32,000 nt of DNA from Parasynechococcus marenigrum WH 8102 (GCF_000195975.1 NC_005070.1:60001-92000); one strand, 5' to 3'. Counted from the first letter of the stretch, positions 9,799 through 31,843 are shown. The notes: generated by a model not told the origin, from the sequence alone. Made by a program: numbers and translations.

Positions 9799-10087
9799 CC
9801 CAGGTGTGGTGATCGGTGAGCTCGTGGGTCTGGAGCAGGTCCTGCTCGAGCTGAAGCGCGTTCGGCACGGTGTGCACGGTCGGAGCGCTGGTGGATCGAA
9901 TCAGAGGGAGACCCGTCGCATCGGTTTCCACCAGGCTGGATGCAGCGGGCATGGCGCTGAGTGACGTGCCCTTCAGTCCCTGGCGGATGTAATCGGCAAT
10001 CAGATCCTTGAGGGTGCGCTTCTGCTGCAGGGCCCGTTGCTTGGCTTGCTGGATCAGGGCGTCGGGGAGATCGATGGTGGTTTTCAT
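9779..10087 (-). CDS. vapB: VapB-type antitoxin
   Basis: The N-terminus MKTTIDLPDALIQQAKQRALQQKRTLKDLIADYIRQGL is typical of VapB-family antitoxins. It sits immediately upstream of the PIN gene and overlaps it. Confidence 0.7.
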   Translation of the reverse strand: MKTTIDLPDALIQQAKQRALQQKRTLKDLIADYIRQGLKGTSLSAMPAASSLVETDATGLPLIRSTSAPTVHTVPNALQLEQDLLQTHELTDHHTWDDGHPD

Positions 10088-18347: not shown

Positions 18348-19061
18348 TCAGCTGCCGTCGCCCATTCGTTGCAAACGAGCCGGTTCATCTGGCGATGAAC
18401 ATGTCAGGGGGTAGCCAAAGGCATGGGCATCGCTGGCGTACAGCCAACGCACCTGTTGCTCCAGTGCTTGAAAGTCAGCCTCGGGGAGCTCGGGTAAGGG
18501 CCTGCGGGCTGGGTTGTCTTGCCCCAATCGAATCACCGGGTCGACGTGCTGTTGCAGCCAGTGTTCGAGTTTCTGCAGCTGCTCCTGGCGAAAAACGTGG
18601 ATTCGCCTGTCGGGTTGAGTGCCGCCTGGTTGGCTCACCAGGGTGTCCAGTTGCGGACGTAGGTGCGGATGGGGCAACCATCGAGCGATATCGATGTATT
18701 GCTCGAGGCTGAGTTGATGGAGATCGCCTTGGGTACGCCAGTGGTAGTACGCCACCAGATCGGGATCTGGATTGCGAAAGGATGAGAGCAACCGCCGCCA
18801 AGGATCCCTTACCACGCTGAACAACACCGCGTCCTTCACAACATCGGGAAACAACTTCTCGAGCTCCGTCAAGGTGAGGTGCTGCAGAAAGTTGCTGGAC
18901 AGGTTCTGCGCCAGCAGGTCGCGGCTCTGAATCAATCCAAAGCCGGTGTGCAGATTTTCCTGTTGCCAGGGTCCGAACAGGTTGAGGGCCTGCTCCACGG
19001 AGCTGCCGGCGGTTTTGGGAATGTGCAGAAAAACAAGCCGGCGTTGGCGATCAAAGGGCAT
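18348..19061 (-). CDS. Sulfotransferase, Sulfotransfer_2-like (carbohydrate sulfotransferase type)
   Basis: It has a 5'-PSB-like loop FLHIPKTAGSS near the N-terminus and a 3'-PB-like VVRDPWRRLLSS. It lies 36 nt upstream of mutS and 3 nt downstream of the GNAT gene, on the same strand. Confidence 0.7.
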   Translation of the reverse strand: MPFDRQRRLVFLHIPKTAGSSVEQALNLFGPWQQENLHTGFGLIQSRDLLAQNLSSNFLQHLTLTELEKLFPDVVKDAVLFSVVRDPWRRLLSSFRNPDPDLVAYYHWRTQGDLHQLSLEQYIDIARWLPHPHLRPQLDTLVSQPGGTQPDRRIHVFRQEQLQKLEHWLQQHVDPVIRLGQDNPARRPLPELPEADFQALEQQVRWLYASDAHAFGYPLTCSSPDEPARLQRMGDGS

Positions 19062-19064
19062 GGC

Positions 19065-19604
19065 TCAACGCTTCAGCACCAGGAGTTGCTGCGGGTCGGC
19101 ATCGCGGAACCCAAGTTGGCGATAGAACCCGGCGCTGTTGGTGGTCATCAGATAAATCCGTTCAACGCCAGCGACAGACGGGGTGTGCAGCAGCTCCTCC
19201 ACAATCCGTCGACCAAAGCCCCGACCCTGCAGGTCGCCGGCCACCACGATGTCCCACAGCACGGCGCGACTGAAGCCATCGGATGTGGCCCGCCCGAAGG
19301 CCACCAGGCGTTTGCCGCGCCAGAGGCTGACGACAGCAGTGCTGCCGGCCAGCAGCCGCCGCAGCTGATCAAAGCTGCGACCACGGGCCCAGGTTGCATG
19401 ACGGTCGAACAGACGTTGCAGCTTCAGCAGTGCCCTGCTGGGACGAAGATCTGGCCCCAGCCCCAGCCAACGCAGACCAGGGGCGCCGGGTGCGTGGCAA
19501 ACCAGCCGGATCGGGGTCACAGCCTGTAAACCGAATGGATGCATCCTGCCCGGCGATGGGCCAGTCCATGGGAGGATGCGCTCCAGCTTTGGTGGCCGGA
19601 CCAT
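19065..19604 (-). CDS. GNAT family N-acetyltransferase (ycf52-like)
   Basis: Acetyl-CoA-binding motif A text: VVAGDLQGRGFGRRIVEELL...YLMTTNSAGFYRQLGF. The likely start is the internal Met at 19544 (MHPFGLQ), because the longest ORF nearly abuts the psbZ ATG. Confidence 0.75.
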   Translation of the reverse strand: MVRPPKLERILPWTGPSPGRMHPFGLQAVTPIRLVCHAPGAPGLRWLGLGPDLRPSRALLKLQRLFDRHATWARGRSFDQLRRLLAGSTAVVSLWRGKRLVAFGRATSDGFSRAVLWDIVVAGDLQGRGFGRRIVEELLHTPSVAGVERIYLMTTNSAGFYRQLGFRDADPQQLLVLKR

Positions 19605-19607
19605 CCC

Positions 19608-19796
19608 ATGCAGTTCCTGAACACTCTCACCGTGCTGGCCCTGGTGGTGATGTCTTTTGCCTTGATCGTGGCTGTTCCGGTGCTTTATGCCTCCTCGGAA
19701 GATAGTGGTCGTTCCAATCGTCTGATTCTTTTGGGTAGTGCTGTGTGGGTCGCGCTGGTGCTGCTGAACTGGGGGGTCAGCTTCTTCGTGGTGTGA
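19608..19796 (+). CDS. psbZ: Photosystem II reaction centre protein Z
   Basis: The internal Met of ORF 19539..19796 gives a 62-aa two-helix protein: MQFLNTLTVLALVVMSFALIVAVPVLYASSEDSGRSNRLILLGSAVWVALVLLNWGVSFFVV. This is the PsbZ (Ycf9) size and text. Confidence 0.88.
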   Translation: MQFLNTLTVLALVVMSFALIVAVPVLYASSEDSGRSNRLILLGSAVWVALVLLNWGVSFFVV

Positions 19797-19797
19797 T

Positions 19798-19816
19798 GGC
19801 TCTTCTGTGAAGAGCC
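19798..19816 (+). terminator. Hairpin immediately after the psbZ stop
   Basis: ggctcttc-tgt-gaagagcc, an 8-bp perfect stem with a 3-nt loop, starts 2 nt after the TGA. No U-tract follows, so it may be a stabilising or processing hairpin rather than a classical terminator. Confidence 0.4.
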
Positions 19817-19852
19817 CCGAGTGCGAAGATCAGTCAATTCCGGCTGTGATCG

Positions 19853-20335
19853 ATGACGACGTTTGAAGGGCGGTTCACCGACACTGCGGATCTGCGCATC
19901 GCTGTTGTGGTGGCGCGATTCAACGATCTGGTGACGTCGAAGCTGCTCAGTGGATGTCTTGATTGTCTGTCAAGGCATGGCATTGATACAGCAGAGACCA
20001 GCTCTCAGCTGGATGTTGCTTGGGTTCCCGGTTCTTTTGAGTTACCCATCGTTGCTCAGAACCTTGCACAAAGTGGTCGTTATCAGGTGGTGATTACGCT
20101 TGGCGCTGTGATTCGTGGAGATACGCCTCACTTTGATGTTGTTGTTGCCGAAGCCAGTAAGGGGATCGCAACTGTGGCGCGCGAGTCGGGTGTTCCGGTG
20201 ATTTTTGGTGTGTTGACGACAGACACCATGCAGCAGGCTCTGGAGAGAGCAGGGATTAAAAGTAATTTGGGCTGGAGTTACGGCTTACAGGCTCTGGAAA
20301 TGGGAAGTTTGATGGCAGCACTGGCCCAGTCGTGA
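19853..20335 (+). CDS. ribH: 6,7-dimethyl-8-ribityllumazine synthase
   Basis: Motifs [42 protein letters not shown] and VIFGVLT. Confidence 0.93.
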
Positions 20336-21060
20336 GACTTCCAGACTTTCTCGGGATTGGCACCCAGAAAGGTGGAACCACGTTTGTGTACGAACTGCTG
20401 AAGCAGCATCCGCAGGTGTTTATGGCTGCTCCGAAAGAGCAGCATTTTTTTACGCTTCATTGGCAGCAAGGTGTTGACTGGTATCGAAATCAATTTGCAT
20501 TGGCAACAAGTGATCAGATGTGTGGAGAGGTAACTCCTTATTATTTATTTCATCCGGAAGCGCCACGGCGCATTCACTCTGTGATGCCGAGGACCAAGTT
20601 GATTGTCGTACTGCGGGATCCGGTTGAACGCGCCTTGTCTCAGTATTTCCACAGCAAGCGTTTGGGTCTGGAAGCATTGAGCTTGGAGGATGCTTTGGCT
20701 GCGGAGCCGCAGCGATTAGAGGATAGTGATGAGGTTTTAGCGACCGGCAAACCGCATCGAAGTCATCAGCAGCATAGTTATGTGAGTCGTGGACGGTATG
20801 AGCAACAAATCAGCCGTTTTAAGCAGTTTTTTTCTAACCAACAATTGCTGTTGATGCGCAGTGAGCAATTGTTTGCGCAGCCTGATGTTGCATGGAGACA
20901 AATTCTTGATTTTCTTGGCTTGAGTTTTGTTCAATGCCCTCAGCAAAAGCCTGTTTATGCTGGTGGTGGTGAGGCTGCCAATGTGTCCTCTGAAATTAAA
21001 AACCAATTGCGCCAACAGCTAAGTAGTACTTACCAATGGATGCAGGATAGTTTCGAATGA
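20332..21060 (+). CDS. Sulfotransferase, Sulfotransfer_1-like (heparan-sulfate sulfotransferase-like fold)
   Basis: PAPS 5'-PSB loop [14 protein letters not shown], then EQHFF, WYRNQF, GEVTPYY, and the 3'-PB text [19 protein letters not shown]. The GTG start overlaps the ribH stop (GTGA, 20332-20335). GC is low. Confidence 0.75.
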
Positions 21061-22268
21061 ACCTTCTTTTTATCCATGGTAACTTTCCGGGTCAGTTTAA
21101 GGATATTGCCCCTGCTCTTGCTTTGAATACCAACGGCAAGACATATTTTCTCAGTTTATCGGATAATCCCCAGAATATTGTTCTTCCGCGGGTTCAGTTT
21201 CGTCAATTTAAGCTGCATCGAGATGTCGGTTCTGAGACGCATGCCTATGTGCAATCGGCTGAGCTTGCTGTGCTCAAGGGACAAGCCGTGCTTCGTGCGC
21301 TTGATCAGTTGCATAAACAGGAAGGTTTTATGCCAGATGTTGTGATTTGCCACGGCGGCATGGGGTTTGGCCTTTTTGTGAAATCATTATTGCCTAATGT
21401 TCGCTTGATTTCCTACTTGGAGTGGTACTTTACGCCGTCAAATAGCCAAGAGTTGATTCTGAATCCCTCTATTAACGATTTTTGTCGTCTGGAATGTCGG
21501 AATATTCCTATTCTCCAGGAAGCAGCACAGGCTGATCAGCTGGTCTGTCCAACACGTTGGCAAAGGGATCAATTTCCAGCATTCATCAGGGATCGTATTC
21601 AGGTTGTTTTTGATGGCGTTGATCTTGATTTCTTCAGCCCCGGGCCTCCAGCTGATCCACTTGTTCTCAACGCCAATCGTGAATCACCACTGCAATTCAC
21701 ATCTGATCAGTTGTTGTTGACCTATGGAACGCGAGGGATGGAGCCACTCCGTGGTTTTCCTGAATTCATGCGGGCTGCTGCAGTTGCTCAACAGACGTTT
21801 CCTCAGTTACATGTCATTGTATTTGGAAAAGATCGTTCAGCTTATAGTTATCCAAGCCCTCACCCGAGTGGTAGTTGGAAACAATTCATGCTTGAACAGT
21901 TGGAAGGGCAGCTGGATCTAGAAAGGCTGCATTTTACAGGCTTACTCAATTACGGCGAGTTGGTTCAGTTGTTCCGTCGTAGCGATCTTCATTGTTATTT
22001 CACGCGTCCATATGTGGTGAGCTGGGGTGTTTTCCAAGCTGTTGCTTGCGGTGCTCGGTTGCTGGTGAATGACTTTGCAGGTATCGATGAAGTGTTTGAT
22101 GGAAAGCCCTTCTTCTCCCCGGTAGATCTCGACCATCAAGAGCAAATTAATGCCTCTGTTATTGAATGTCTGCGTGTTGAAAAGGAATCAAATGCTGTTA
22201 GTCTTCCCTCTTCGCTTTCACTGTCGTCATGCATTGCCCAATGGGTTGATTTAATCTTTTCTATGTAA
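21057..22268 (+). CDS. Glycosyltransferase, GT-B fold (GT4 / group-1-like)
   Basis: 403 aa. The N-terminal half is [14 protein letters not shown]...VICHGGMGFGLF. The C-terminal half resembles a Glycos_transf_1 donor-binding domain (LLTYGTRGMEPLRGF...FGKD...FTGLLNYGELVQLFRRSDLHCYFTRPYVVSWGVFQAVACGARLL). The ATG overlaps the upstream stop (ATGA, 21057-21060). This is the lowest-GC coding stretch in the window. Confidence 0.65.
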   Translation: MNLLFIHGNFPGQFKDIAPALALNTNGKTYFLSLSDNPQNIVLPRVQFRQFKLHRDVGSETHAYVQSAELAVLKGQAVLRALDQLHKQEGFMPDVVICHGGMGFGLFVKSLLPNVRLISYLEWYFTPSNSQELILNPSINDFCRLECRNIPILQEAAQADQLVCPTRWQRDQFPAFIRDRIQVVFDGVDLDFFSPGPPADPLVLNANRESPLQFTSDQLLLTYGTRGMEPLRGFPEFMRAAAVAQQTFPQLHVIVFGKDRSAYSYPSPHPSGSWKQFMLEQLEGQLDLERLHFTGLLNYGELVQLFRRSDLHCYFTRPYVVSWGVFQAVACGARLLVNDFAGIDEVFDGKPFFSPVDLDHQEQINASVIECLRVEKESNAVSLPSSLSLSSCIAQWVDLIFSM

Positions 22269-22478
22269 TCTTGTTCGTCAAAGGGTTTAGGTTTTTGCTT
22301 TGAATAAAGCGGTTGATTAAAGAGTATCTATCCCTCTTAGGGTTTTGTATGCTCTAAAAATTACTGACTGATGTTGCCCTTGAGGCCATATCATTAAATA
22401 TAGTATTTTTCTTTTGGATCTATGGGTGATTTTGGTTTTAATTTATTGGCGGTACTTTTCAGTTTGTTTGGTTGCCAA

Positions 22479-22506
22479 TAAAAAAGCCCCTCCTAAAGGA
22501 GGGGCT
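22479..22506 (-). terminator. Rho-independent terminator of the swmA-like gene (structurally bidirectional hairpin)
   Basis: A perfect 9-bp stem, agcccctcc (22485-22493) with ggaggggct (22498-22506), encloses a 4-nt loop. On the minus strand it is followed by TTTTTTATT. It lies 27 nt downstream of the stop at 22533. Confidence 0.85.
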
Positions 22507-22532
22507 GAATATTTGACTTGACGGTGATCAGA

Positions 22533-25100
22533 TCAAGCGAAAATCACAAGATCAGTTGAAGTCAATGTAGGCGCAGTAGCTCCGTTTAATAGAGTTGCAA
22601 CAGTAACTGCCGTGTTGTTAGTGCCAGTTCCGTCAGCGTCGAAGCTGAGGACACCGGTGTCTGTGTTGTACAGGAACTGTGCATAAGCCTGATCCACGAC
22701 TGCAGGGGCGGCTGTAGTACCAGACTTCAAGGCAGTTGCGTTGAAGGTGGATGCGTTGTCTCCAGATGGTGGAGTGTAGGAACCAACAATGGCTGAATTT
22801 GCATTTGATGAAATTGCAGCATCACTGAAGGCCAGAGCTTCACCGTTAAGAGAAATGGCCTCGTTCGAGAGAGCTGTGGTGTTTTGAGCATTAGCCGTAG
22901 CAGTGCTCTTTCCGTAATCGGTAATGGTATCTCCCCAGTTTGCAACTGTTGAGAAGTCGTAGAAATCAATTCCAAGACCACCAGTGATGCTGTCAACACC
23001 ACCGCCACCATTAAAGGTGTCAGCGCCAGCTGAACCTGTAATGGTGTCAGCGGAGGCACCGCCAGTGACATTCACTGAACCATCAGTTTCAGCGCTTGCG
23101 TTGAAGGTGAGCTTGCCTGTGAAGCTTGCATTGTTGGTCGTAACTGTCAGGCTCTTGCCGGATGCAATTGTTGTATCGAGGAGCGTGATGGATGCGTTGT
23201 CTTTTGCATTTTCCAGTTTGACGACTTCCACTTCAGACACTCTGTCGAGAATGTTGGTGGAGGCAGATTTGTGACTGAAAGCGATGGTATCAGTACCGTC
23301 ACCACCAGTGATGAGGTCGTCTTTAGAAAGGTCGGTGTTCAGATCGAGGTAGTCATCTCCATCACCACCAACAAGAATGTCGGTACCTTCAGTACCAGCA
23401 TCAATCGTGTCAGCTCCTTCACCACCGGTGAGGCTGTCACCACCGGATCCACCAGTGATTTGATCAGCGCCATCACCACCCAAAATGGTGTTGTCACCTT
23501 CAGTACCCTTCAGGATCATTCCCTGAGTGGCACCGTTACCTGCAGAGTTATCGATCAAGGAACCTGCAGTGGTTGCGCTTGCGGAGAGGTCAATACCAGC
23601 GATGTAGTCCTCTGCACTGCTGTCGAAGACGATTGATGAACCGGTGGTCACCGCATCTGTAGTGGCGATGATCAGACCTTCGGCCGCGATAGTACGCTTA
23701 CCATCTGTTCCAGCGCTCATCGTAACTCGATCGAACGAGTCAATATCGATGAAAGACAATGCCTCAGCGACATTTGCTTTTACGTAAGTGCCATCACCGA
23801 CAGTGATTGAGTCGACGACATCACCAGCGGTGAAGAATTCAGCGAAGGATGAATACTGAAGGCTAGTTGCGTATTTAGCATCTGTAGAACCTGCTGCGAC
23901 AATTGTGTCTACGCCAGCACCACCAATGACAGTGTGGAACTTTTCATCAGCAGCCGTAACTACAGTGTTGACGTTAATTGAGTCAGCACCTTCGCCGCCC
24001 GAAACCATGCTGGCTTCATTTGTGCCAATGCTGATGACGTCGTCGCCTTTGTCACCGTAGTACGTACGAGATCCATCGGCACTACTAATGATGGTGTCAT
24101 TACCTTGTCCACCGAAAATGGTTTCATCGGACTCAGAGGTAGCACCATCGATTTTGTCGTTGCCGGAATTACCCTTGGCTACTAATTCTGAACCAGCTCG
24201 GGCGGCAGTCAGGGAAAGTGTGTCAGCTCCATCGCCACCGAATACGCTTGCACCTGAAACAACACTAGCAATTTCAATTGTGTCGTTATCATTATCACCG
24301 TGAACAGCTACTGCAGCGGCTGTATCGATCTTGATTGAATCGTTGTCCTTGCCGCCGTAGAACCTGTTGCCAGTTCCCGCAAGAGTAAGATCGAGCGTAT
24401 CAGCACCCTCGCCACCCTTCGCGATCAGGTTGGAGTGAGAACCTGAGATAGATAGGTTGTCATTATCTCCACCAGCGTCAACTAAAGAATCCAGTGATTC
24501 AGCAACACTGATCGCGTCGCGGGCTGCACCGCCCCTAACGGTCACACTAGTGATCCGCTTGTTGAACGTGAGGGAGTCATCATCAGCACCACCGTCAACG
24601 ATGGTTCCACCACTCACCTTGTCGGTGAAAGTGATTGTGTCCTTATTGGTGTCTCCGTAGACAACTCCACCAACAACAGCTCGGTCGAAAGTGATGCTGT
24701 CAGCGGCCTTACCACCGTAAACCGAAGTGTTTGTGGTTGCACCCTTGATGGTGATGTAGTCAGCAGCTGCACCGCCTTTGATCATGGCGTCAGCAACGTC
24801 ACCCATTGCGGTGAGGGTGTCTGAGTCGCCTGCGCCATAGAGCTCAAAACCAGTTGAGGTCTCTTCGACAACGACCTCGTCGTTTCCTTCCTTGGCGTCA
24901 AGGAACCAATCCTTGAGCTCGGAAACTTCGATGTAGTCGGGATTGGAAGTACCGCCTGCGACGGTGGTGAGAGTTGCCACGGAAGGAATGTGGATAATGG
25001 CTTCCGACGAAGGGTATCGGCTTATTACACGGGATGTCAATCCATGTTCCGCTTCCGTGACTGGCGCGAATTCCAGCTGTGGCCATGCATTTGGCCTCAT
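22533..25100 (-). CDS. swmA: Cysteine-free RTX/beta-roll cell-surface (S-layer) protein, SwmA-like (non-flagellar swimming motility protein)
   Basis: 855 codons, rich in Gly/Asp/Thr/Ser/Ala with no Cys. Canonical GGxGxDxUx nonapeptide runs are present: LGGDGADQITGGSGGDSLTGGEGADTIDAG...VGGDGDDYL and TGGASADTITGSAGADTFNGGGGVDSITGGLGIDF. The N-terminal half carries degenerate ~18-20-aa Gly-Gly/Asp repeats. There is no N-terminal signal peptide. The C-terminus ends ...DTGVLSFDADGTGTNNTAVTVATLLNGATAPTLTSTDLVIFA, a type-I-secretion style acidic-then-hydrophobic end. The SwmA identification comes from my memory of the WH8102 protein (Ca-binding motifs, many N-x-S/T sequons) and is not verified. The start is ambiguous between ATG 25100 and in-frame TTG 25040. 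Confidence 0.8.
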   Translation of the reverse strand: MRPNAWPQLEFAPVTEAEHGLTSRVISRYPSSEAIIHIPSVATLTTVAGGTSNPDYIEVSELKDWFLDAKEGNDEVVVEETSTGFELYGAGDSDTLTAMGDVADAMIKGGAAADYITIKGATTNTSVYGGKAADSITFDRAVVGGVVYGDTNKDTITFTDKVSGGTIVDGGADDDSLTFNKRITSVTVRGGAARDAISVAESLDSLVDAGGDNDNLSISGSHSNLIAKGGEGADTLDLTLAGTGNRFYGGKDNDSIKIDTAAAVAVHGDNDNDTIEIASVVSGASVFGGDGADTLSLTAARAGSELVAKGNSGNDKIDGATSESDETIFGGQGNDTIISSADGSRTYYGDKGDDVISIGTNEASMVSGGEGADSINVNTVVTAADEKFHTVIGGAGVDTIVAAGSTDAKYATSLQYSSFAEFFTAGDVVDSITVGDGTYVKANVAEALSFIDIDSFDRVTMSAGTDGKRTIAAEGLIIATTDAVTTGSSIVFDSSAEDYIAGIDLSASATTAGSLIDNSAGNGATQGMILKGTEGDNTILGGDGADQITGGSGGDSLTGGEGADTIDAGTEGTDILVGGDGDDYLDLNTDLSKDDLITGGDGTDTIAFSHKSASTNILDRVSEVEVVKLENAKDNASITLLDTTIASGKSLTVTTNNASFTGKLTFNASAETDGSVNVTGGASADTITGSAGADTFNGGGGVDSITGGLGIDFYDFSTVANWGDTITDYGKSTATANAQNTTALSNEAISLNGEALAFSDAAISSNANSAIVGSYTPPSGDNASTFNATALKSGTTAAPAVVDQAYAQFLYNTDTGVLSFDADGTGTNNTAVTVATLLNGATAPTLTSTDLVIFA
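22953..23069 (-). repeat. Canonical RTX nonapeptide block 2
   Basis: aa 678-716: VTGGASADTITGSAGADTFNGGGGVDSITGGLGIDFYDF. Confidence 0.85.
23283..23489 (-). repeat. Canonical RTX nonapeptide block 1
   Basis: aa 538-606: TILGGDGADQITGGSGGDSLTGGEGADTIDAGTEGTDILVGGDGDDYLDLNTDLSKDDLITGGDGTDTI. Confidence 0.85.
23886..24848 (-). repeat. Degenerate beta-roll/beta-helix-like repeats in the N-terminal half of the swmA-like gene
   Basis: aa ~85-405 show recurring xYGGxxxDxIxF / GGxGADxLxL-type units, for example YGGKAADSITF, YGDTNKDTITF, DGGADDDSLTF, RGGAARDAISV, AGGDNDNLSI, KGGEGADTLDL, YGGKDNDSIKI, HGDNDNDTIEI, FGGDGADTLSL, FGGQGNDTII, YGDKGDDVISI, SGGEGADSINV and IGGAGVDTIV. Confidence 0.75.
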
Positions 25101-25192
25101 CCCCTAGCAGTGCAGGCCGTCCTGAGTCTTGACCAAGGGACCGTTGGTAGTCCATGATGCATTGGCCGACGGACGAGGTCTGCGGCAAATTT

Positions 25193-25264
25193 GCGGATGT
25201 AGCTCAGTGGTAGAGCATCTCCTTGCCAAGGAGAGGGTCGAGAGTTCGAATCTCTTCATCCGCT
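25193..25264 (+). tRNA. trnG-GCC: tRNA-Gly (anticodon GCC)
   Basis: Hand-folded cloverleaf of 72 nt. The acceptor is GCGGATG/CATCCGC. The D-arm is GCTC-AGTGGTA-GAGC. The anticodon arm is TCTCC-TTGCCAA-GGAGA (anticodon GCC). The variable loop is GGGTC. The T-arm is GAGAG-TTCGAAT-CTCTT, and the discriminator is T. CCA is not encoded. Confidence 0.93.
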
Positions 25265-25591
25265 TTGATGGTTTCACTAATCTATCGGAATATTCATTAA
25301 TGATGCTTTTGCATCAGCACTGCGAGGGTAGACGGGTGTGAGGCCTCGATTTTGCAACTGAAAATCGGAATAATTTGCTTTAAGTTGTTTAATGGGTCAT
25401 ATATCGATTTAAGTGAATTCAAATTTAAGGAGATATTGATCGAATAAGTCTTATTTTGCTTTCGTGTTCGACCGAATGTTTTTGGTTAACGTATTGTTCT
25501 GCGTGATATTTATGAGTTCATTTTAGTCGGTTTGAAATCCTCATGACCAAGTCCCGTTAGGCTCTCCAGATCAATGGATTCCGTCTAGGCC
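25265..25591. other. AT-rich non-coding spacer (tRNA-Gly to secA); presumably contains the secA promoter and 5'UTR and marks an island edge
   Basis: 327 nt with no ORF longer than a few codons. It is much more AT-rich than the flanks. It contains small hairpins at 25301-25316 (6-bp stem) and 25347-25367 (7-bp stem cgatttt/aaaatcg). I could not identify a recognisable promoter consensus with confidence. Confidence 0.4.
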
Positions 25592-28405
25592 ATGCTCAAG
25601 CTCCTGCTGGGTGACCCCAATGCCCGCAAGCTGAAGCGCTACCAGCCGATTGTGTCCGACATCAATCTGCTGGAGGAGGACATATTCCCTCTTTCGGATG
25701 ATGCCCTGCGGGACAAGACGGCAGCCTTCCAGGAGCAGCTGGCGAGTGCGGGCAGCCTCGAGAATCAGCGGCCGATCCTCGATGAGATCCTGCCGGAGGC
25801 CTTTGCAGTGGTGCGTGAGGCCGGTAAGCGTGTGCTCGGTATGCGCCACTTCGATGTTCAATTGATCGGCGGCATGGTGCTGCATGAGGGTCAGATCGCT
25901 GAAATGAAAACTGGGGAAGGCAAGACCCTGGTGGCCACGTTGCCCAGCTACCTCAACGCCCTCACTGGTCGTGGTGTGCATGTGGTCACCGTCAACGACT
26001 ACCTCGCCCGTCGTGATGCGGAATGGATGGGGCAGGTGCATCGCTTCCTCGGTCTCTCTGTGGGCTTGATCCAGCAGGACATGCGTCCTGAGGAAAGGCG
26101 CCGCAACTACAACTGCGACATCACCTACGCCACTAACTCCGAGTTGGGCTTCGACTACCTGCGGGACAACATGGCCGCAGACATCAGCGAAGTCGTTCAA
26201 CGGGAGTTTCAATACTGCGTGATCGACGAGGTTGACTCGATCCTGATCGATGAAGCCCGCACGCCGTTGATCATTTCCGGCCAGGTGCAGCGGCCCCAGG
26301 AGAAATACCAGCAGGCGGCCCAGGTTGCGCAGGCGCTCACTAGGGCTGCGGAGATGGGGAAAGACGGCATTGATCCGGAAGGCGACTACGAGGTCGACGA
26401 GAAGCAGCGCAGCTGCACCCTCACCGATGAGGGCTTCGCCAAGGCTGAGCAGATGCTGGGGGTGCAGGATCTGTTTGATCCCCAGGACCCCTGGGCCCAC
26501 TACATCACCAATGCCCTCAAGGCCAAGGATCTGTTCGTTAAGGACGTTAATTACATCGTTCGTGATGGCGAAGCCGTGATCGTTGATGAGTTCACCGGTC
26601 GTGTGATGCCCGGCCGTCGCTGGAGCGATGGCCAACACCAGGCGATTGAAGCCAAGGAAGCGCTGCCGATTCAGGCTGAAACCCAAACCCTTGCGTCCAT
26701 CACCTACCAGAATTTCTTCCTGCTCTACCCGCGCCTGGCAGGGATGACCGGCACGGCCAAAACGGAAGAGGTGGAGTTCGAGAAGACCTACAAGCTCGAA
26801 ACCACCATCGTCCCCACCAACCGGGTCCGCGCCCGCCAGGACTGGCCCGACCAGGTCTACAAAACAGAAACCGCCAAGTGGCGGGCTGTGGCCAACGAAA
26901 CCGTTGATATTCACAAGAACGGCAGGCCCGTGTTGGTGGGCACCACCTCCGTTGAAAAGAGCGAACTGCTTAGTGCCCTGCTGGCTGAGCAAGAGATTCC
27001 CCACAACCTGCTCAACGCCAAGCCGGAGAACGTTGAGCGGGAATCGGAAATCGTGGCTCAGGCCGGTCGCGCCGGGGCGGTCACCATCGCCACCAACATG
27101 GCGGGTCGTGGTACCGACATCATTCTTGGTGGCAACAGCGATTACATGGCTCGGCTCAAGCTGCGCGAGGTGTTGCTGGGTCGATTGGTGAAACCCGAGG
27201 AGAATCACAAACCACCCGTTCCCTTGCAGCGCAACGCCGCGGCAGGCTTTTCAGAGGCGCCAACCGCGTCGGCGACCCCCAGTCGCGACAGCCTCTACCC
27301 CTGTGTTCTCACGGACGACACCGATCAGACTCTGGCTCAGCTGGCTCGGGATCTGGTGAAGGCCTGGGGCGATCGGGCCTTGACCTTGATCGAGCTGGAG
27401 GAACGCATTGCCACGGCAGCCGAGAAGGCTCCCACCGATGACCCCAACATTCAGGCCCTGCGTGCGGCCACCGCTCGAGTTAAGGGTGAGTTCGATGCAG
27501 TGGTCAAGCAGGAAGAGCAGCGGGTTCGCGAAGCCGGTGGGTTGCATGTGATCGGCACCGAGCGGCACGAATCTCGCCGGGTCGACAACCAGTTGCGTGG
27601 CCGTGCCGGCCGCCAGGGTGATCCGGGCTCCACACGCTTTTTCCTCTCCCTCGGCGACAACCTGCTGCGGATCTTCGGGGGTGACCGGGTGGCCGGGTTG
27701 ATGAATGCCTTCCGGGTGGAAGAGGATATGCCGATCGAATCCGGCATGCTCACCCGTTCGTTGGAAGGCGCTCAGAAGAAGGTGGAAACCTATTACTACG
27801 ACATCCGTAAACAGGTGTTCGAATACGACGAGGTGATGAACAATCAGCGCCGCGCCGTGTATTCCGAACGCCGCCGTGTGTTGGATGGCCGTGCCCTTAA
27901 AAAACAGGTGATTGGTTACGGCGAACGCACGATGAATGAGATCGTGGAGGCCTATGTGAACCCCGATCTGCCGCCGGAGGAGTGGGATACGGCGCAGTTG
28001 GTCGCCAAGGTGAAGGAGTTTGTTTATCTCTTGGAGGATCTCACCCCCGAGCAGGTGCAGGGCCTAGGGATGGACGAACTCAAAGCATTCCTGCAGGAAC
28101 AGCTGCGCAATGCCTACGACATCAAGGAGGGTCAGGTGGAGCAGCAGCGCCCTGGTTTGATGCGAGAAGCGGAACGCTTTTTCATCCTTCAACAGATCGA
28201 TACCCTCTGGCGCGAACACCTCCAGGCCATGGATGCCCTCAGGGAATCCGTCGGTTTGCGTGGTTATGGTCAGAAGGATCCACTGATCGAATATAAAAAC
28301 GAGGGCTACGACATGTTCCTCGAAATGATGACGAACATGCGGCGGAATGTGATCTACTCCATGTTTATGTTCCAACCTGCCGCTCCTCAACAGAGTCAGG
28401 TCTGA
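25592..28405 (+). CDS. secA: Preprotein translocase ATPase SecA
   Basis: The N-terminus is [19 protein letters not shown]. Walker A context is [14 protein letters not shown], and the DEAD-like motif is [31 protein letters not shown] is also present. Confidence 0.97.
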
Positions 28406-28412
28406 AGGCGTC

Positions 28413-29363
28413 ATGTCTCCCTGGTCGTCACCCTTGCTACGTCGCCCTTGGTTCGGCCATCGACCTCTTCTTTCTGTGGTGGTGGTTTCTTACAACATGA
28501 CCCGGGAGCTCAAGCGCACCCTTTATTCGCTATCGCCGAAATTTCAAAGGGATGTGAAGGCTCAGGACTACGAGGTGATTGTGGTAGACAACGGCTCAAC
28601 CCTGCCGCCTGATCCGTCGGATTGGATTCAACGGCCAGGTTGGTCAGTCCGTGTGGTTTGCTGGCCAGCCTGGGATGTGTCGCCCTGTCGTGCCGTGAAT
28701 GCGGGTGTTGCTCAGGCCCGGGCACGTCATGTTTGTGTGATGGTTGATGGTGCTCGCATGGTGTCGCCTGGGTTGATCTCAGGAATGCTGAATATCCTGC
28801 GAGCTGACCCTGATGCCCTGGCCATTACCCTTGGCTTTCATCTGGGCATGCAGCCGCAAAATGTATCGATCACCCAGGGTTATAACCAAAGGGAGGAAGA
28901 TCGACTGTTGCGAAAGATTCGCTGGCGTAACAATGGATATCAGCTGTTTTCAGTTTCTTGTTTGGCGTTGTCATCAGCCGGGGGCTGGTTTGCCCCCATC
29001 ACCGAAAGTAATTGTTTTGCGTTGAAGCGCAAACGTTTTCAGGAGCTGGGTGGTTTTGACGAACGCTTTCAATCACCTGGTGGTGGCCTCGTGAACCTCG
29101 ATTTTTTCCGAACGGCTATCGCATCACCGCTGTTGCGTCCCTGGATGCTTCTCGGTGAAGGCAGTTTTCATCAGATCCACGGCGGTGTTGCAACCAATGT
29201 GCCGATGGAGAAGCATCCTGGCCTGCAATTCGCCCTGGAGTATGAACAGATCCGCGGCGAATCTTATGCACCACCGCGCTACGAACCTTCGTACTACGGA
29301 TCGCTGCCGGAGGTGACCCGGCGTTGGATTGACCCTTCAACGGCAGTGACCAATGCGTCATGA
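28413..29363 (+). CDS. Glycosyltransferase family 2 (GT-A fold)
   Basis: LSVVVVSYNMTRELKRTLYSL...YEVIVVDNGS followed by MVDGARM (a DxD-like position). It starts only 7 nt after the secA stop. Confidence 0.7.
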   Translation: MSPWSSPLLRRPWFGHRPLLSVVVVSYNMTRELKRTLYSLSPKFQRDVKAQDYEVIVVDNGSTLPPDPSDWIQRPGWSVRVVCWPAWDVSPCRAVNAGVAQARARHVCVMVDGARMVSPGLISGMLNILRADPDALAITLGFHLGMQPQNVSITQGYNQREEDRLLRKIRWRNNGYQLFSVSCLALSSAGGWFAPITESNCFALKRKRFQELGGFDERFQSPGGGLVNLDFFRTAIASPLLRPWMLLGEGSFHQIHGGVATNVPMEKHPGLQFALEYEQIRGESYAPPRYEPSYYGSLPEVTRRWIDPSTAVTNAS

Positions 29364-31012
29364 AATTGTTCATGACCCTGTTGGTGCGGGATGAGGCCGA
29401 CATTCTGGCCTTAAACCTCGAACACCATCTCGCCCAAGGTATTGATTTCTTCATCGTGACCGATAACGGTTCGGTGGATGCCACACCAGAGATTCTTCAA
29501 ACGTACGCCGATCGCGGTTTGCTGGAACTGATTCAGGAACCATCGGAAACTTATGCCCAGGCGGTGTGGGTCACGCGCATGGCCCAGCGGGCGGCAGCCC
29601 TTGGAGCTGATTGGGTGATTCACGCTGATGCCGATGAATTCTGGATCGCTGCGCAGCCGGGGCTGCGGGTGCGTCAGGTGGTTCGGCGACTTCCCAAGGA
29701 TCAATTGATCCTTGCCGTTCAGCGTTGGAACGCTGCCCTGTCGCGCCATGTTGAACGCCTTGATTGCGTTGAACCAACGACGATTCGCTGGTACGACAGC
29801 GATTCGCGCAATGCGGTTGGTCGCCCCTTGCCGCCCAAGGTGTTGCACCGCGGTTGCTCCGATGTGCAGATTGATCAGGGCAATCACAGCCTGACCTGGC
29901 CTGATGCTGCGGAACCGACCCACAGCTCTTCGGAGCTGCTGATCCTGCATCTGCCTCTGCGGGGGTATCGGCACTACGAACGCAAAATACGCCAGGGTGG
30001 TCGTTCCTATGCCTCCAACCCAGACCTGCCGGCCCGTCTGGGGGGAACCTGGCGTCAGGAGCATTTGATCTATCTCGCTGGAGATCTGCGTCGCCGTTGG
30101 CGCGAGCAGTTGCTCTCCATGTCTCAGCTGTTGCGTGGCCGCTTAACAGGTCGTTTTCGCCAGCCGCCCAACCCAATCACGCCGGCTCAACCCAGCCGTG
30201 GCGTGATCTGTCTGGCGGACGACAACTACTTCTTTGGTGTACGGCTGCTGTATCAGTCCCTAGCGGGGCAGGTTCCCCTCACCGTCTATGACCTTGGACT
30301 TGGTGATCGTGCTCGTCGTTGGGTGGACAGCCACAACGGCATCAGCATCCGGCCGATTCCACAGTCGCCACTGGTGCAGGCCGTGCGGGAGGCCTGCGGA
30401 GAGCGCAGCCTGGCCAAGGCCACCAAGCGTGAATGGCCGTTATGGATCTGCCCAGAGTTGCTGTTGGATGCTCCTTATCAGCAGGTCGCCTGGATTGATG
30501 CGGATGCGGTGGTGCTTCGCGGCCTGCCGAAGCTGTTCCAGCGCATCAATCGAGCCCCCTTCATCACACCGGAGAATCTGGCGCCGGAGCTAACCGCCAA
30601 TCCCTATGAGTTGTATGAGGCGCTCCCCCTGGCCCGTGGGCGCCCCTCAGCGCCGCCGATTCTCCTGAATGCTGGTGTCAGCGGTTGGGATCAGCAGCGT
30701 GATCGTCATCTTCTTGAGGCTTACAACCACCCCGTGCGTTGCATCTTTCAGGGGAAGTCTCTGAATCGTGAACTGGTGCGTTGGCATGACCAGGGTTGTT
30801 TGATCTGGGCTCTGCAAAACGCCGGATATGACGCTTCAATTCTTCAACATCGACGCTGGAATCTTTGTGTCCGTCACAGCGGACTGGCTGGTTTGAAGGT
30901 CGATCCATCCAGCTGTGATCTGGAGATTCAGGCCTGGTTGGACCATGCCCGTTCCTTAGAGCCAAAGGCCAACATTGTTCACTGGAATGGCCACACCGTC
31001 CCTTGGCTCTAA
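29360..31012 (+). CDS. Two-domain glycosyltransferase: N-terminal GT2-like (Glyco_tranf_2_4-like) plus C-terminal GT8-like nucleotide-diphospho-sugar transferase
   Basis: The N-domain reads LVRDEADILALNLEHHLAQGIDFFIVTDNGSVDAT...WVIHADADEFW. The C-domain reads VICLADDNYFFGVRLLYQSL...VAWIDADAVVLRGL...LNAGVSGW, a GT8-like DxD and fold text. The ATG overlaps the upstream stop (ATGA, 29360-29363). Confidence 0.65.
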   Translation: MKLFMTLLVRDEADILALNLEHHLAQGIDFFIVTDNGSVDATPEILQTYADRGLLELIQEPSETYAQAVWVTRMAQRAAALGADWVIHADADEFWIAAQPGLRVRQVVRRLPKDQLILAVQRWNAALSRHVERLDCVEPTTIRWYDSDSRNAVGRPLPPKVLHRGCSDVQIDQGNHSLTWPDAAEPTHSSSELLILHLPLRGYRHYERKIRQGGRSYASNPDLPARLGGTWRQEHLIYLAGDLRRRWREQLLSMSQLLRGRLTGRFRQPPNPITPAQPSRGVICLADDNYFFGVRLLYQSLAGQVPLTVYDLGLGDRARRWVDSHNGISIRPIPQSPLVQAVREACGERSLAKATKREWPLWICPELLLDAPYQQVAWIDADAVVLRGLPKLFQRINRAPFITPENLAPELTANPYELYEALPLARGRPSAPPILLNAGVSGWDQQRDRHLLEAYNHPVRCIFQGKSLNRELVRWHDQGCLIWALQNAGYDASILQHRRWNLCVRHSGLAGLKVDPSSCDLEIQAWLDHARSLEPKANIVHWNGHTVPWL

Positions 31013-31051
31013 CGACCGAAATCAACGCGCTCCATACAATCCTTTGATCGA

Positions 31052-31843
31052 TTGCTGGGGCTGGTGTTGATCCGGAGGATTTGGCCGTGGTACTCGCGAC
31101 CTCGCGGTCCGCAGCAGGTTCTAACGGTGCTGGGCATGCACCGCAGTGGCACCAGCCTGCTGACCGGAACTCTGCAGGAGGCCGGATTGGTGTTGGGGGA
31201 TGTTGTGACGGCCGCCCCACACAACCGCAAGGGCAACCGCGAATCATTGCCGATCCGTGCGTTGCACGACGACTTGATGCAGCGAGCCGGTGGCGACTGG
31301 GATCGGCCACCGCAACAGGTGAGCTGGCAGCCGGTGCACACAGCACTGCGGGATGCCGTGATTGATTCCCATCTCCATGACAGCTTCTGGGGGTTCAAGG
31401 ATCCCCGCACACTGTTCTGCCTCGAGGGTTGGCTCGATGTGCTGCCGAATCTGCAGATGGTGGCGATTGTTCGCCATCCCGAAGCTGTGGCTCGGTCTCT
31501 GCAGGCTCGCAATGGCATGGCCTTGGCGGATGGCCTGGAACTTTGGCGCCTTTACAACGCACGCCTCCTGGACTGGCTCGAGCGTCGGCCAGGGATGCCG
31601 CTCTTGCATTTCGACGACGATTTAGGTCGCTTCCGCGTCGATGTCGTCGCGTTAACGACAACCCTTGCGTTGCCCAGACGACTCAAGTCCGATGCGCTCC
31701 GTTTCCCGGATGCAGCGCTGCAACACCAGCGATCGGGCCAGGAACCCTTGCCTCCGGCGGTGGATGCCTTGTATCAGCAGCTGCTTGAGCGGCGCTTCAG
31801 CCTGTGTTTTCCCCCAGAAACTCCAAGATCTCTCGATCTTTAA
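31052..31843 (+). CDS. Sulfotransferase family protein (Sulfotransfer_3-like)
   Basis: P-loop-like 5'-PSB VLTVLGMHRSGTSLL, then FWGFKDPR, and 3'-PB-like VAIVRHPEAVARSL. The track start is a TTG; the true start could be up to ~20 codons downstream. Confidence 0.6.
   Translation: MLGLVLIRRIWPWYSRPRGPQQVLTVLGMHRSGTSLLTGTLQEAGLVLGDVVTAAPHNRKGNRESLPIRALHDDLMQRAGGDWDRPPQQVSWQPVHTALRDAVIDSHLHDSFWGFKDPRTLFCLEGWLDVLPNLQMVAIVRHPEAVARSLQARNGMALADGLELWRLYNARLLDWLERRPGMPLLHFDDDLGRFRVDVVALTTTLALPRRLKSDALRFPDAALQHQRSGQEPLPPAVDALYQQLLERRFSLCFPPETPRSLDL

What the first reader, a model, noticed from the sequence alone, without database searches (positions are those of the whole stretch)
18348..31843. Candidate sulfated-glycan surface-decoration system around the swmA-like S-layer/swimming gene
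**Seen.** Within 13.5 kb there are three sulfotransferase-like ORFs from three different families. They are recognised by PAPS-loop text: FLHIPKTAGSS with RDPWRRLLS; GTQKGGTT with [10 protein letters not shown]; and GMHRSGTS with VRHPEAVARS. The same stretch holds three glycosyltransferase genes carrying four GT domains (GT4-like, GT2, and GT2-like plus GT8-like). All of these bracket one 855-aa RTX surface protein.

**Established.** SwmA of Synechococcus WH8102 is a glycosylated S-layer protein required for swimming without flagella. I also recall that glycosyltransferase genes near swmA were hit in motility transposon screens. All three sulfotransferase types are carbohydrate-sulfotransferase-like, the families that include animal glycosaminoglycan sulfotransferases.

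**Inference.** The locus may build a multiply sulfated glycan. That glycan would sit either on SwmA itself or in an associated surface layer, giving a highly anionic, Ca2+-interacting surface that could matter for thrust generation, grazer or phage evasion, or both. I am not aware that sulfation has been described for this motility apparatus.
Basis: partly seen in the sequence, partly recalled or inferred. Interest (0 to 1): 0.8.

Follow-up and report, generated by a model that had tools for sequence, protein, structure and literature searches.

The report
Sulfotransferase genes around Synechococcus swmA
This is the already-studied swmA swimming and S-layer locus of marine Synechococcus WH8102; it really does hold three intact sulfotransferase genes beside its glycosyltransferases, so a sulfated surface sugar is plausible though unproven, but the same enzyme pairs occur in relatives that have no swmA at this chromosomal site.

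Summary
Three ORFs pass Pfam thresholds for three sulfotransferase families, and their PAPS-binding motifs are conserved across homologues. Three glycosyltransferase genes carry four GT-A/GT-B domains, and together these genes flank an 855-aa RTX protein.

The window is the WH8102 genome itself. Seven proteins match WH8102 records exactly, so the RTX protein is SwmA (SYNW0085). The accessory genes are SYNW0079, 0083, 0084, 0087, 0088 and 0089. Gene order is identical in five other swmA-bearing genomes: four clade III isolates and one single-cell assembly.

Comparative genomics changes the interpretation. SYNW0088 is a two-domain enzyme whose model resembles bifunctional glycan co-polymerases such as heparosan and chondroitin synthases. 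In 8 of 8 independent contexts it is followed by a sulfotransferase. These include lineages with no swmA beside secA, and organisms with 35-71% GC. A second pair, ST2 plus a GT4_3 glycosyltransferase, recurs beside unrelated RTX-like proteins and type I secretion genes.

The enzymes therefore most likely build a sulfated surface glycan that is older than swmA. Clade III probably uses it to assemble or anchor the S-layer. Sulfation itself, and whether the glycan sits on SwmA, remain untested.

Interest is moderate. The locus is known; the testable new lead is the sulfation idea and the SYNW0079-SYNW0088 pairing.

The parts
18348..19061 (-). ST1 = SYNW0079 (CAE06594), a PF03567 'sulfotransferase family 2' protein of 237 aa. 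It is soluble.
   Evidence: Pfam 36.7 bits. Exact match to the WH8102 protein. Invariant H13/P15/K16/G19, R85/P87/S93 and H131/H133 in 38 homologues. AF2 model pLDDT 91; the top PDB fold hits are sulfotransferases but E>=0.14. It is 41-49% identical to the sulfotransferases that follow SYNW0088-type GTs elsewhere.
19065..19604 (-). GNAT acetyltransferase. This is a core picocyanobacterial gene, 3 bp upstream of ST1, and probably not part of the system.
   Evidence: PF00583. Present next to secA in Prochlorococcus and most relatives.
19853..20335 (+). ribH (lumazine synthase), a housekeeping gene whose stop codon overlaps the ST2 start by 4 bp.
   Evidence: TIGR00114, 169.7 bits. Coordinates.
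20332..21060 (+). ST2 = SYNW0083 (CAE06598), a sulfotransferase like heparan sulfate 3-O-/N-sulfotransferases, 242 aa. GC is low (47%).
   Evidence: PF00685, 66.9 bits. 1t8t at E=6e-23 with K13, E36, H38, R95 and S103 aligned. GC.
21057..22268 (+). GT4 = SYNW0084 (CAE06599), a GT-B glycosyltransferase with a Glyco_trans_4_3 N-domain. Its start overlaps the ST2 stop. GC is 46%.
   Evidence: PF12000, 148 bits. GT4_3 homologues lie next to RTX/beta-roll proteins in L003, L103, L104, L135, L136 and L002.
22485..22506 (-). Terminator-like hairpin (9-bp stem plus a T run), 27 bp after the swmA stop.
22533..25100 (-). swmA (SYNW0085). The 855-aa ORF encodes an acidic (pI 4.05) RTX/beta-roll S-layer protein.
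   Evidence: PF00353. 13 GGxGxD-type motifs. 72% identical to the A18-40 'cell surface protein required for swimming motility'. Its neighbours are exact WH8102 proteins.
25193..25264 (+). tRNA-Gly(GCC), the boundary of the low-GC ST2-GT4-swmA insertion.
   Evidence: In the ancestral order the tRNA directly follows ribH.
25592..28405 (+). secA, a housekeeping gene. GT2 starts 7 bp after its stop.
28413..29363 (+). GT2 = SYNW0087 (CAE06602), a family-2 glycosyltransferase. It is soluble.
   Evidence: PF00535, 34.7 bits. Exact WH8102 match. Found only in WH8102-type contexts and L176.
29360..31012 (+). SYNW0088 (CAE06603), a two-domain GT: an N-terminal GT2/GT92-like domain and a C-terminal GT8-like domain. 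Candidate bifunctional glycan co-polymerase.
   Evidence: PF13704 and PF01697. PF01501 is sub-threshold. DxD is invariant in both halves. Model pLDDT 91. Fold hits: WbbM, heparosan synthase 2, chondroitin polymerase, LARGE1, glycogenin and GalS1.
31052..31843 (+). ST3 = SYNW0089 (WP_148228837), a PF13469 sulfotransferase. Its true start is upstream of the annotated Met29.
   Evidence: PF13469, 31.1 bits. 16,619 representative homologues, with matches starting at residues 20-24. Invariant G28-S35, K116-R119, R141/P143/S149.

Best explanation
The six accessory genes (SYNW0079, 0083, 0084, 0087, 0088, 0089) encode soluble cytoplasmic enzymes. They use NDP-sugars and PAPS to make a sulfated cell-surface glycan.

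The core of the system is an old, widely conserved gene pair. One member is SYNW0088, a two-domain glycosyltransferase built like the bifunctional co-polymerases that make alternating-disaccharide polymers. The other is a sulfotransferase. In most lineages that partner belongs to the ST1 family. In the WH8102 lineage ST3 sits next to SYNW0088, and the ST1-family gene (SYNW0079) lies 10 kb away.

This glycan predates swmA and exists in non-motile picocyanobacteria. Clade III acquired a low-GC insertion between ribH and tRNA-Gly that carries ST2-GT4-swmA. In that clade the anionic glycan is needed to assemble or anchor the Ca2+-binding SwmA lattice on the outer membrane. The analogy is RsaA of Caulobacter, an RTX S-layer protein held on O-antigen.

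The ST2-GT4_3 pair travels with RTX-type secreted proteins. It probably decorates the protein or its immediate receptor.

Shown here: enzyme family assignments, motif conservation, synteny and the insertion site. Inferred: that the product is sulfated, that it is a polymer, and that it anchors SwmA.
For: Family assignments and intact cofactor motifs.

No transmembrane segment or signal peptide in any of the six enzymes.

The SYNW0088 model matches WbbM (2e-11), heparosan synthase 2 (5e-11), chondroitin polymerase K4CP (5e-10) and LARGE1. DxD is invariant in both domains.

A sulfotransferase follows the SYNW0088-family GT in 8 of 8 independent contexts, from 36% to 87% identity and 35-71% GC: L176, L091, L092, L095, L002, L093/94, L177/178 and the WH8102 type. 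In one freshwater-type context, Wza/Wzc-like export genes, HpsJ and an exosortase are neighbours.

ST2 plus GT4_3 plus an RTX protein, with or without HlyD/ABC genes, recurs in MIT S9507 and in contigs L103, L104, L105, L135 and L136.

The ancestral order is ribH-tRNA-Gly-GNAT-secA. The ST2-GT4-swmA block has 46-51% GC against about 60-67% for the flanks.

Gene order is identical in all six swmA-bearing genomes seen.

Literature: SwmA is EDTA-extractable, and its RTX repeats are assumed to bridge Ca2+ to the outer membrane (PMC3034196). Disruption of three glycosyltransferases abolishes swimming (PMC4293000 citing McCarren & Brahamsha 2009).

My recollection, not verifiable here: the transposon hits in cluster 1 were SYNW0079, 0087 and 0088.
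Against: - No chemistry: sulfate esters have never been reported on SwmA or on WH8102 surface glycans.
- The window holds no exporter, flippase, lipid-carrier primer or APS kinase.
- The full-length TM-scores of the SYNW0088 model to the co-polymerases are low (0.23-0.31). The resemblance lies in domain composition, not in a rigid superposition.
- ST1 fold matches are not statistically significant (E>=0.14).
- The module occurs in lineages without swmA at this site, so a role unrelated to the S-layer is possible.
- The identity of SYNW0079 as a motility-screen hit rests on memory.
Confidence: 0.5

Rival explanations
1. The sulfated glycan is attached covalently to SwmA itself. Cytoplasmic GTs and STs would modify the polypeptide before type I secretion, and the sulfated glycoprotein would form the S-layer.
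For: SwmA is PAS-positive and runs at 130 kDa against 86 kDa predicted. All the enzymes are cytoplasmic, as the substrate of a one-step secretion system would require. GT4_3 genes lie directly beside RTX/beta-roll proteins in at least six different islands.
Against: The SYNW0088-sulfotransferase pair occurs where no RTX protein is nearby (L095, L091) and next to Wza/Wzc-type polysaccharide export genes. A polymer-bearing polypeptide is hard to pass unfolded through a type I system (inference). Very acidic RTX proteins migrate anomalously, so the mass gap need not be glycan.
Confidence: 0.22
2. The genes belong to a generic, fast-evolving surface-polysaccharide/LPS island used for phage and grazer evasion. 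They sit near swmA only because the ribH-tRNA-Gly-secA site is an insertion hot spot.
For: Different low-GC glycan islands occupy the same site in CUG2137, MIT S9507, WH7803, L092 and L136. Prochlorococcus SB has a giant RTX-like ORF there. The insertion lies next to a tRNA gene. ST2 and GT4 have raised dS, and swmA alleles are only 65-72% identical between strains whose core genes are 99% identical.
Against: Disruption of glycosyltransferases near swmA abolishes swimming and alters SwmA production and localisation (title and citation). Gene order is strictly kept in every swmA-bearing genome seen. GT4_3 is repeatedly adjacent to RTX proteins.
Confidence: 0.18
3. One or more of the sulfotransferases act on a non-glycan substrate. 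Examples are tyrosine residues of a secreted protein (as RaxST does for RaxX before type I secretion), a lipid, or a small metabolite.
For: PF13469 and PF00685 both include non-carbohydrate sulfotransferases. ST3 and ST1 have no solved close relative. The MIT S9507 island couples an ST2 homologue with an RTX protein and HlyD/ABC genes, which resembles the raxST-raxA-raxB layout (recalled).
Against: ST2 is closest to carbohydrate (heparan sulfate) sulfotransferases. PF03567 is a carbohydrate sulfotransferase family. The sulfotransferases are consistently adjacent to GT genes.
Confidence: 0.08

Closest known systems
The swmA motility cluster 1 of Synechococcus sp. WH8102 (SYNW0079-SYNW0088; Brahamsha 1996; McCarren & Brahamsha 2005, 2009)
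   Same: It is this locus. Seven proteins are exact WH8102 sequences. SwmA is the S-layer glycoprotein required for thrust.
   Different: The published work, as far as I could read or recall it, treats the accessory genes as glycosyltransferases or hypothetical proteins. The sulfotransferase identity of SYNW0079, 0083 and 0089, and the SYNW0088-sulfotransferase pairing, are not discussed in any held paper.
Bifunctional glycan co-polymerases with partner sulfotransferases (heparosan synthase PmHS2, chondroitin polymerase K4CP, WbbM, LARGE1; animal HS 2-O/3-O/N-sulfotransferases)
   Same: Two GT-A domains lie in one chain, each with a DxD motif. ST2 aligns with HS 3-OST-3 at E=6e-23. ST1 is in the PF03567 family, which contains HS 2-O- and chondroitin sulfotransferases.
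   Different: Sequence identity to the polymerases is only 10-13% and the domain arrangement differs (TM 0.23-0.31). No polymer has been shown. Bacterial heparosan and chondroitin are not sulfated by their producers, so a bacterial polymerase with dedicated sulfotransferases would be unusual.
Synechan (xss) sulfated exopolysaccharide system of Synechocystis PCC 6803
   Same: It is a cyanobacterial gene cluster that combines GTs with sulfotransferases to make a sulfated extracellular polysaccharide (abstract, PMC13125312).
   Different: As I recall it, the xss cluster includes Wzx/Wzy-type polymerisation and export genes and regulators in one cluster. The window has none. Here the genes are split into three small operons headed by housekeeping genes and flank an S-layer gene.
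RsaA S-layer of Caulobacter crescentus anchored on LPS O-antigen
   Same: Both are RTX-type, Ca2+-dependent S-layer proteins exported by type I secretion. In Caulobacter, surface attachment depends on a separately made glycan, and glycan-synthesis mutants lose the layer (recalled knowledge). SwmA is released by EDTA.
   Different: The anchoring glycan of Caulobacter is not sulfated. Anchoring of SwmA to a glycan is an inference, not shown.

Membership tests
PAPS-dependent sulfotransferase superfamily (ST1, ST2, ST3) | Score above the curated Pfam threshold for a sulfotransferase family | tested here: met
   PF03567 36.7/22, PF00685 66.9/22, PF13469 31.1/27 bits. The ST1 match covers only residues 4-97.
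PAPS-dependent sulfotransferase superfamily (ST1, ST2, ST3) | 5'-phosphosulfate-binding loop (P-loop-like, K/R-x-G-T/S-T/S) and 3'-phosphate-binding R-x-P...S motif, both conserved | tested here: met
   ST1: H13 P15 K16 G19 and R85 P87 S93 invariant in 38 sequences. ST2: K13 G15 T16 T17 and R95 D96 P97 S103 invariant in 5. ST3: G28-S35 and R141 P143 S149 invariant in 40.
PAPS-dependent sulfotransferase superfamily (ST1, ST2, ST3) | Sulfotransferase fold | tested here: inconclusive
PAPS-dependent sulfotransferase superfamily (ST1, ST2, ST3) | Sulfate transfer from PAPS to an acceptor | not testable with these tools
   Needs enzyme assays. Presence of APS kinase (cysC) in the genome could not be checked from the window.
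SwmA, S-layer protein of swimming Synechococcus | Orthology to the WH8102 swmA gene (SYNW0085) | tested here: met
   The flanking proteins are exact WH8102 entries CAE06599 and CAE06602, which places the ORF at CAE06600/SYNW0085 (NP_896180 numbering). It is 72% identical to the A18-40 protein annotated as required for swimming motility, and 96-98% to A18-46.1 and RS9915.
SwmA, S-layer protein of swimming Synechococcus | RTX Ca2+-binding repeats | tested here: met
   PF00353, 50.4 bits. 13 GGxGxD-type motifs.
Glycosyltransferase family 8 (C-terminal half of SYNW0088) | Pfam PF01501 above threshold | tested here: not met
   13.3 bits against a 24.3 cut-off, E=0.063 on the isolated C-terminal half.
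Glycosyltransferase family 8 (C-terminal half of SYNW0088) | GT-A fold with DxD and a C-terminal H-x-x-G-x-x-x-P-W-type motif | tested here: met
   D380/D382, N437/G439, H541-W-N-G544 and P548/W549 are invariant or nearly so in 30 homologues. Glycogenin-1 E=1.3e-8 with TM(target) 0.55, and UGGT catalytic domain. The output does not state which half aligns, so this remains 'GT8-like'.
Bifunctional two-domain glycan co-polymerases (K4CP, PmHS2, WbbM, LARGE1) | Two catalytic GT-A domains in one polypeptide | tested here: met
   The model has two Rossmann-like halves, a DxD in each, and its best PDB matches are these enzymes.
Bifunctional two-domain glycan co-polymerases (K4CP, PmHS2, WbbM, LARGE1) | Processive synthesis of an alternating disaccharide polymer | not testable with these tools
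   Requires in vitro polymerisation with UDP-sugars.
Cyanobacterial sulfated-EPS cluster (synechan/xss type) | GTs and sulfotransferases clustered with polysaccharide polymerisation and export genes | tested here: not met
   No Wzx/Wzy, Wza/Wzc or ABC exporter in the window. Wza/Wzc-like genes are neighbours only in the distant L093-type context.

The most novel reading that the evidence does not exclude
Non-flagellar swimming in Synechococcus depends on a bacterial glycosaminoglycan-like polymer. SYNW0088 would be a bifunctional co-polymerase, and its product would be sulfated by SYNW0079, 0083 and 0089. This polyanion would hold the RTX S-layer protein SwmA on the outer membrane through Ca2+. 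That would be the first sulfated S-layer anchor or glycan in Bacteria, and a natively sulfated heparan-like polymer made by a bacterium. The same GT-sulfotransferase module would mark sulfated surface coats across picocyanobacteria.
Probability: 0.2. Interest if true: 0.75.

Novelty: new member of a known kind. Interest (0 to 1): 0.45.

Why it matters
How Synechococcus swims without flagella has been unexplained since 1985. The only structural parts identified are SwmA and SwmB.

If the enzymes flanking swmA make a sulfated polyanion that anchors or decorates the S-layer, that adds a concrete and easily tested component. The tests are 35S labelling, three knockouts and staining for sulfated polymers. 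It would also reinterpret an old motility-screen hit (SYNW0079, from my recollection) as a sulfotransferase.

More broadly, the conserved pairing of a two-domain GT with a sulfotransferase right after secA suggests that sulfated surface glycans are common in marine picocyanobacteria. That bears on phage adsorption, grazing, aggregation, and the marine pool of sulfated polysaccharide.

Tried and rejected
**Searches that fell short**
It returned no clade III genome, only other picocyanobacteria and distant cyanobacteria. It was still useful for the ancestral gene order.
- The natural test named by Dore et al. [quoted passage not shown] I could not fetch them: their PsbZ is not identical to the window's and no search returned a protein labelled with those strains.
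- The stored supplementary table of that paper is truncated. It shows only that two 'carbohydrate sulfotransferase 8-10 family' gene clusters meet the criterion of at least 80% of clade III strains and no others. Their identity with SYNW0079 is unproven.
- The McCarren & Brahamsha papers (2005, 2007, 2009) are not held. Searching for SYNW locus tags found nothing.
- PDB sequence searches for ST1 and ST3 were empty.
- The genomic context of the M16CYN homologue (P0260) was not on record.
- The promoter scan was no better than shuffled sequence.

**Ideas rejected**
- That the window comes from a high-GC estuarine subcluster 5.2 strain. That was my first guess from the GC content and the metagenome source. 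The exact protein matches show it is WH8102.
- That the GNAT gene belongs to the system. It is a core gene found next to secA even in Prochlorococcus.

Full report
**1. What is in the window**

The gene order from 15.6 kb to 32 kb is:
- mutS (-)
- ST1 (18348-19061, -; PF03567)
- GNAT (-)
- psbZ (19608-19796, +)
- ribH (+)
- ST2 (20332-21060, +; PF00685)
- GT4 (21057-22268, +; PF12000)
- the 855-aa RTX protein (22533-25100, -)
- tRNA-Gly(GCC) (25193-25264, +)
- secA (+)
- GT2 (28413-29363, +; PF00535)
- a 550-aa two-domain GT (29360-31012, +; PF13704/PF01697 in the N-terminal half)
- ST3 (31052-31843, +; PF13469)
- cysE, convergent with ST3 and running off the window end

All three sulfotransferase hits exceed the Pfam gathering thresholds.

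The accessory genes are arranged as three short co-directional runs headed by housekeeping genes. These are GNAT-ST1, ribH-ST2-GT4 and secA-GT2-GT-ST3. Within them, 4-bp start/stop overlaps or gaps of at most 7 bp join the genes, except for a 39-bp gap before ST3 (coordinates). The rest of the window (tig, asd, dapA, RNase J, aspartate kinase, a VapC pair, holA, cbiC, tilS, uvrB) is housekeeping.

**2. Where it comes from**

Exact-sequence look-up shows that ST1, ST2, GT4, GT2, the two-domain GT and ST3 are identical to proteins of Synechococcus (Parasynechococcus marenigrum) WH8102. The accessions are CAE06594, 06598, 06599, 06602, 06603 and WP_148228837, and the genome is 2,434,428 bp.

With swmA = SYNW0085 = NP_896180, the accession offsets make these SYNW0079, 0083, 0084, 0087, 0088 and 0089. 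The RTX protein is therefore SwmA itself.

The same sequence also sits on a 453-kb 'estuary metagenome' contig.

Five further genomes have the same order including all six accessory genes: A18-40, A18-46.1, RS9915, BOUM118 and a single-cell assembly.

**3. Are the enzymes intact?**

ST2 aligns over about 200 residues with human heparan sulfate 3-O-sulfotransferase-3 (E=6e-23). The PSB-loop Lys, the Glu and His of the E-x-H-F-F segment, and the R-D-P...S 3'-phosphate motif are all kept. From memory, that Glu is the catalytic base in 3-OSTs. These residues are invariant in five homologues.

The ST1 family (38 sequences, down to 33% identity) has invariant H13/P15/K16/G19, R85/P87/S93 and an H131-P-H133 pair. 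Its AlphaFold model is confident (pLDDT 91). Twelve of its thirteen best PDB matches are sulfotransferases, but at non-significant E-values of 0.14-1.2.

ST3 belongs to a very large family, with 16,619 representatives at E<=1e-3. G28-S35, K116-R119 and R141/P143/S149 are invariant.

dN/dS between WH8102 and A18-40 is 0.14-0.42 for all six genes.

None of the six has a hydrophobic segment or signal peptide. They therefore act in the cytoplasm, where PAPS and nucleotide sugars are found.

**4. The two-domain GT**

The C-terminal half misses the GT8 Pfam threshold. Thirty full-length homologues keep a DxD in each half, plus an H-W-N-G...P-W motif.

The model (pLDDT 91) is best matched by bifunctional two-domain polymerases:
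- WbbM (2e-11)
- heparosan synthase 2 (5e-11)
- chondroitin polymerase K4CP (5e-10)
- LARGE1

Single-domain matches include glycogenin (GT8), GalS1 (GT92) and SunS. Full-length TM-scores are low (0.23-0.31). The likeness is therefore in domain composition, not in rigid geometry.

**5. Comparative genomics: the decisive part**

*Ancestral arrangement.* In Prochlorococcus and several Synechococcus/Cyanobium genomes the order is uvrB-mutS-ribH-tRNA-Gly-GNAT-secA. In WH8102 a block with 46-51% GC (ST2-GT4-swmA) lies exactly between ribH and tRNA-Gly. The flanking genes have 59-67% GC.

*The SYNW0088-sulfotransferase pair.* SYNW0088 has full-length homologues at 87% down to 36% identity. In every context I could read, a sulfotransferase gene follows it within 0-460 bp.

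| Context | Identity to SYNW0088 | Following sulfotransferase | Other features |
|---|---|---|---|
| L176 | 87% | ST3-type | GT2 also present |
| L092 | 73% | ST1-family | directly after secA |
| L095 | 62% | ST1-family | directly after secA |
| L091 | about 61-65% | ST1-family | directly after secA |
| L002 | not scored full-length | ST1-family | pair inverted |
| L093/L094 | 51% | ST1-family | 70% GC; Wza/Wzc-like genes, HpsJ and exosortase nearby |
| L177/L178 | 36% | ST1-family | 35% GC; six sulfotransferases of several families, a GT92 and a 945-aa cadherin-like surface protein nearby |

The ST1-family sulfotransferases in these contexts are 41-49% identical to SYNW0079.

L092, L095 and L002 have other genes, not swmA, upstream of secA. 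So the GT-sulfotransferase pair is older and more widespread than swmA. In the WH8102 lineage the ancestral ST1-type partner appears to have moved next to mutS, and ST3 occupies its place.

*The ST2-GT4_3 pair.* ST2 orthologues (41-62% identity) sit at the ribH/GNAT/secA site in many marine metagenome contigs. Several abut secA with no room for swmA (L113, L116, L134).

ST2 also recurs with a GT4_3 glycosyltransferase and an RTX or beta-roll protein:
- In MIT S9507 the order is ST2, GT4_3, a 357-aa RTX protein, HlyD and an ABC exporter.
- L103, L104 and L105 show the same layout.
- In L135, L136 and L002, GT4_3 is adjacent to 469-562-aa repeat proteins that are weakly SwmA-like.

**6. Interpretation**

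The sulfotransferase and GT annotation is sound. The link to a surface glycan is well supported by conserved adjacency.

The link to SwmA has two supports. One is invariant synteny in swmA-bearing strains. [quoted passage not shown] I recall that cluster 1 of the 2005 transposon screen comprised SYNW0079, 0087 and 0088. If that is right, a sulfotransferase-family gene is already a motility gene. I could not verify this.

The system is not specific to swmA or to swimming. The most economical model has four parts:
- An ancient co-polymerase-plus-sulfotransferase module makes a sulfated surface glycan.
- A second ST2/GT4_3 module is associated with secreted RTX proteins.
- Clade III uses the glycan to assemble or anchor the Ca2+-binding, EDTA-releasable SwmA lattice.
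- This works like RsaA on O-antigen in Caulobacter (recalled).

Covalent sulfated glycans on SwmA remain possible. The evidence that SwmA is glycosylated is only SDS-PAGE plus PAS staining.

**7. Novelty**

The locus and its role in motility are known. Doré et al. list swmA with 'a specific beta-glycosyltransferase' as a clade III island. Public annotation already names the sulfotransferases.

No held paper connects sulfation with this apparatus. A review of bacterial S-layer glycans does not mention sulfate at all. Sulfated exopolysaccharide clusters are known in cyanobacteria (synechan).

I therefore file this as a new member of a known kind, with a testable and moderately interesting hypothesis.

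Noticed in passing
window 25193-25264 (+): A tRNA-Gly(GCC) gene lies in the 491-bp swmA-secA spacer. In relatives with the ancestral order it follows ribH directly, so the low-GC ST2-GT4-swmA block is an insertion between ribH and this tRNA.
   Followed up: yes
window 22533-25100 (-); L082 10001-12607; L087 12843-15452; L083 10001-12523: swmA is hypervariable. Alleles of strains whose secA and uvrB are 99% identical share only 65-72% identity, and the last 100 or so residues do not align between some pairs. WH8102, RS9915 and A18-46.1 share one allele (96-98%). ST2 and GT4 next to it also show raised dS (0.16-0.26 against 0.02-0.09 for most flanking genes). This suggests allele replacement or diversifying selection of the whole island.
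   Followed up: partly
window 31052-31843 (+): The public 235-aa model of ST3 starts at Met29 ('MHRSGTS'). That removes the beta-strand before the PAPS loop. Homologue alignments begin at residues 20-24, so the real start is upstream, for example the TTG at 31052.
   Followed up: partly
L001 12833-13945; L085 11549-12661; L088 4213-5325 (= window 21057-22268): Automatic gene calls on metagenome copies of this locus break the intact 403-aa GT4 ORF into fragments of 65-126 aa. This is probably because of its atypical 46% GC, and it is an annotation artefact rather than a pseudogene.
   Followed up: yes
L001 (ENA ERZ922660, estuary metagenome contig k127_102110, 453 kb): A 453-kb contig from an estuary metagenome encodes all 12 locus proteins compared, each 100% identical to the window (= WH8102). 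This is either a very close wild relative or laboratory-strain DNA in that data set.
   Followed up: no
L177 1-17756 (GCA_964535875.1, GC 35%): A distant SYNW0088 homologue (36%) sits among six sulfotransferase genes of several Pfam families, a GT92, a large GT2 and a divergently transcribed 945-aa cadherin/Big_9-repeat surface protein. It is a much richer version of the same theme in an unidentified low-GC organism.
   Followed up: partly
L136 6406-7839 (+); L002 6413-7822 (-): A sulfatase-family (PF00884) gene lies in the same low-GC islands as the ST2 homologue, TPR proteins and GT4_3. This hints at sulfate-ester turnover, or at a phospho-transferase of that superfamily.
   Followed up: partly
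L032 2-8815 (+) (Prochlorococcus marinus SB): An open reading frame of at least 2938 codons, with RTX-like repeats weakly similar to SwmA, occupies the same site upstream of GNAT-secA in a Prochlorococcus genome.
   Followed up: no
window 9352-10087 (-): A VapC (PIN) toxin gene and a small upstream partner (DUF6364) lie between aspartate kinase and holA. The pair is absent at that position in BOUM118 (L087).
   Followed up: partly
L097 9-1929: In one marine contig an ST1 homologue (72%) and an ST2 homologue (62%) are only about 770 bp apart and divergent. This is a third arrangement of these two sulfotransferases.
   Followed up: no
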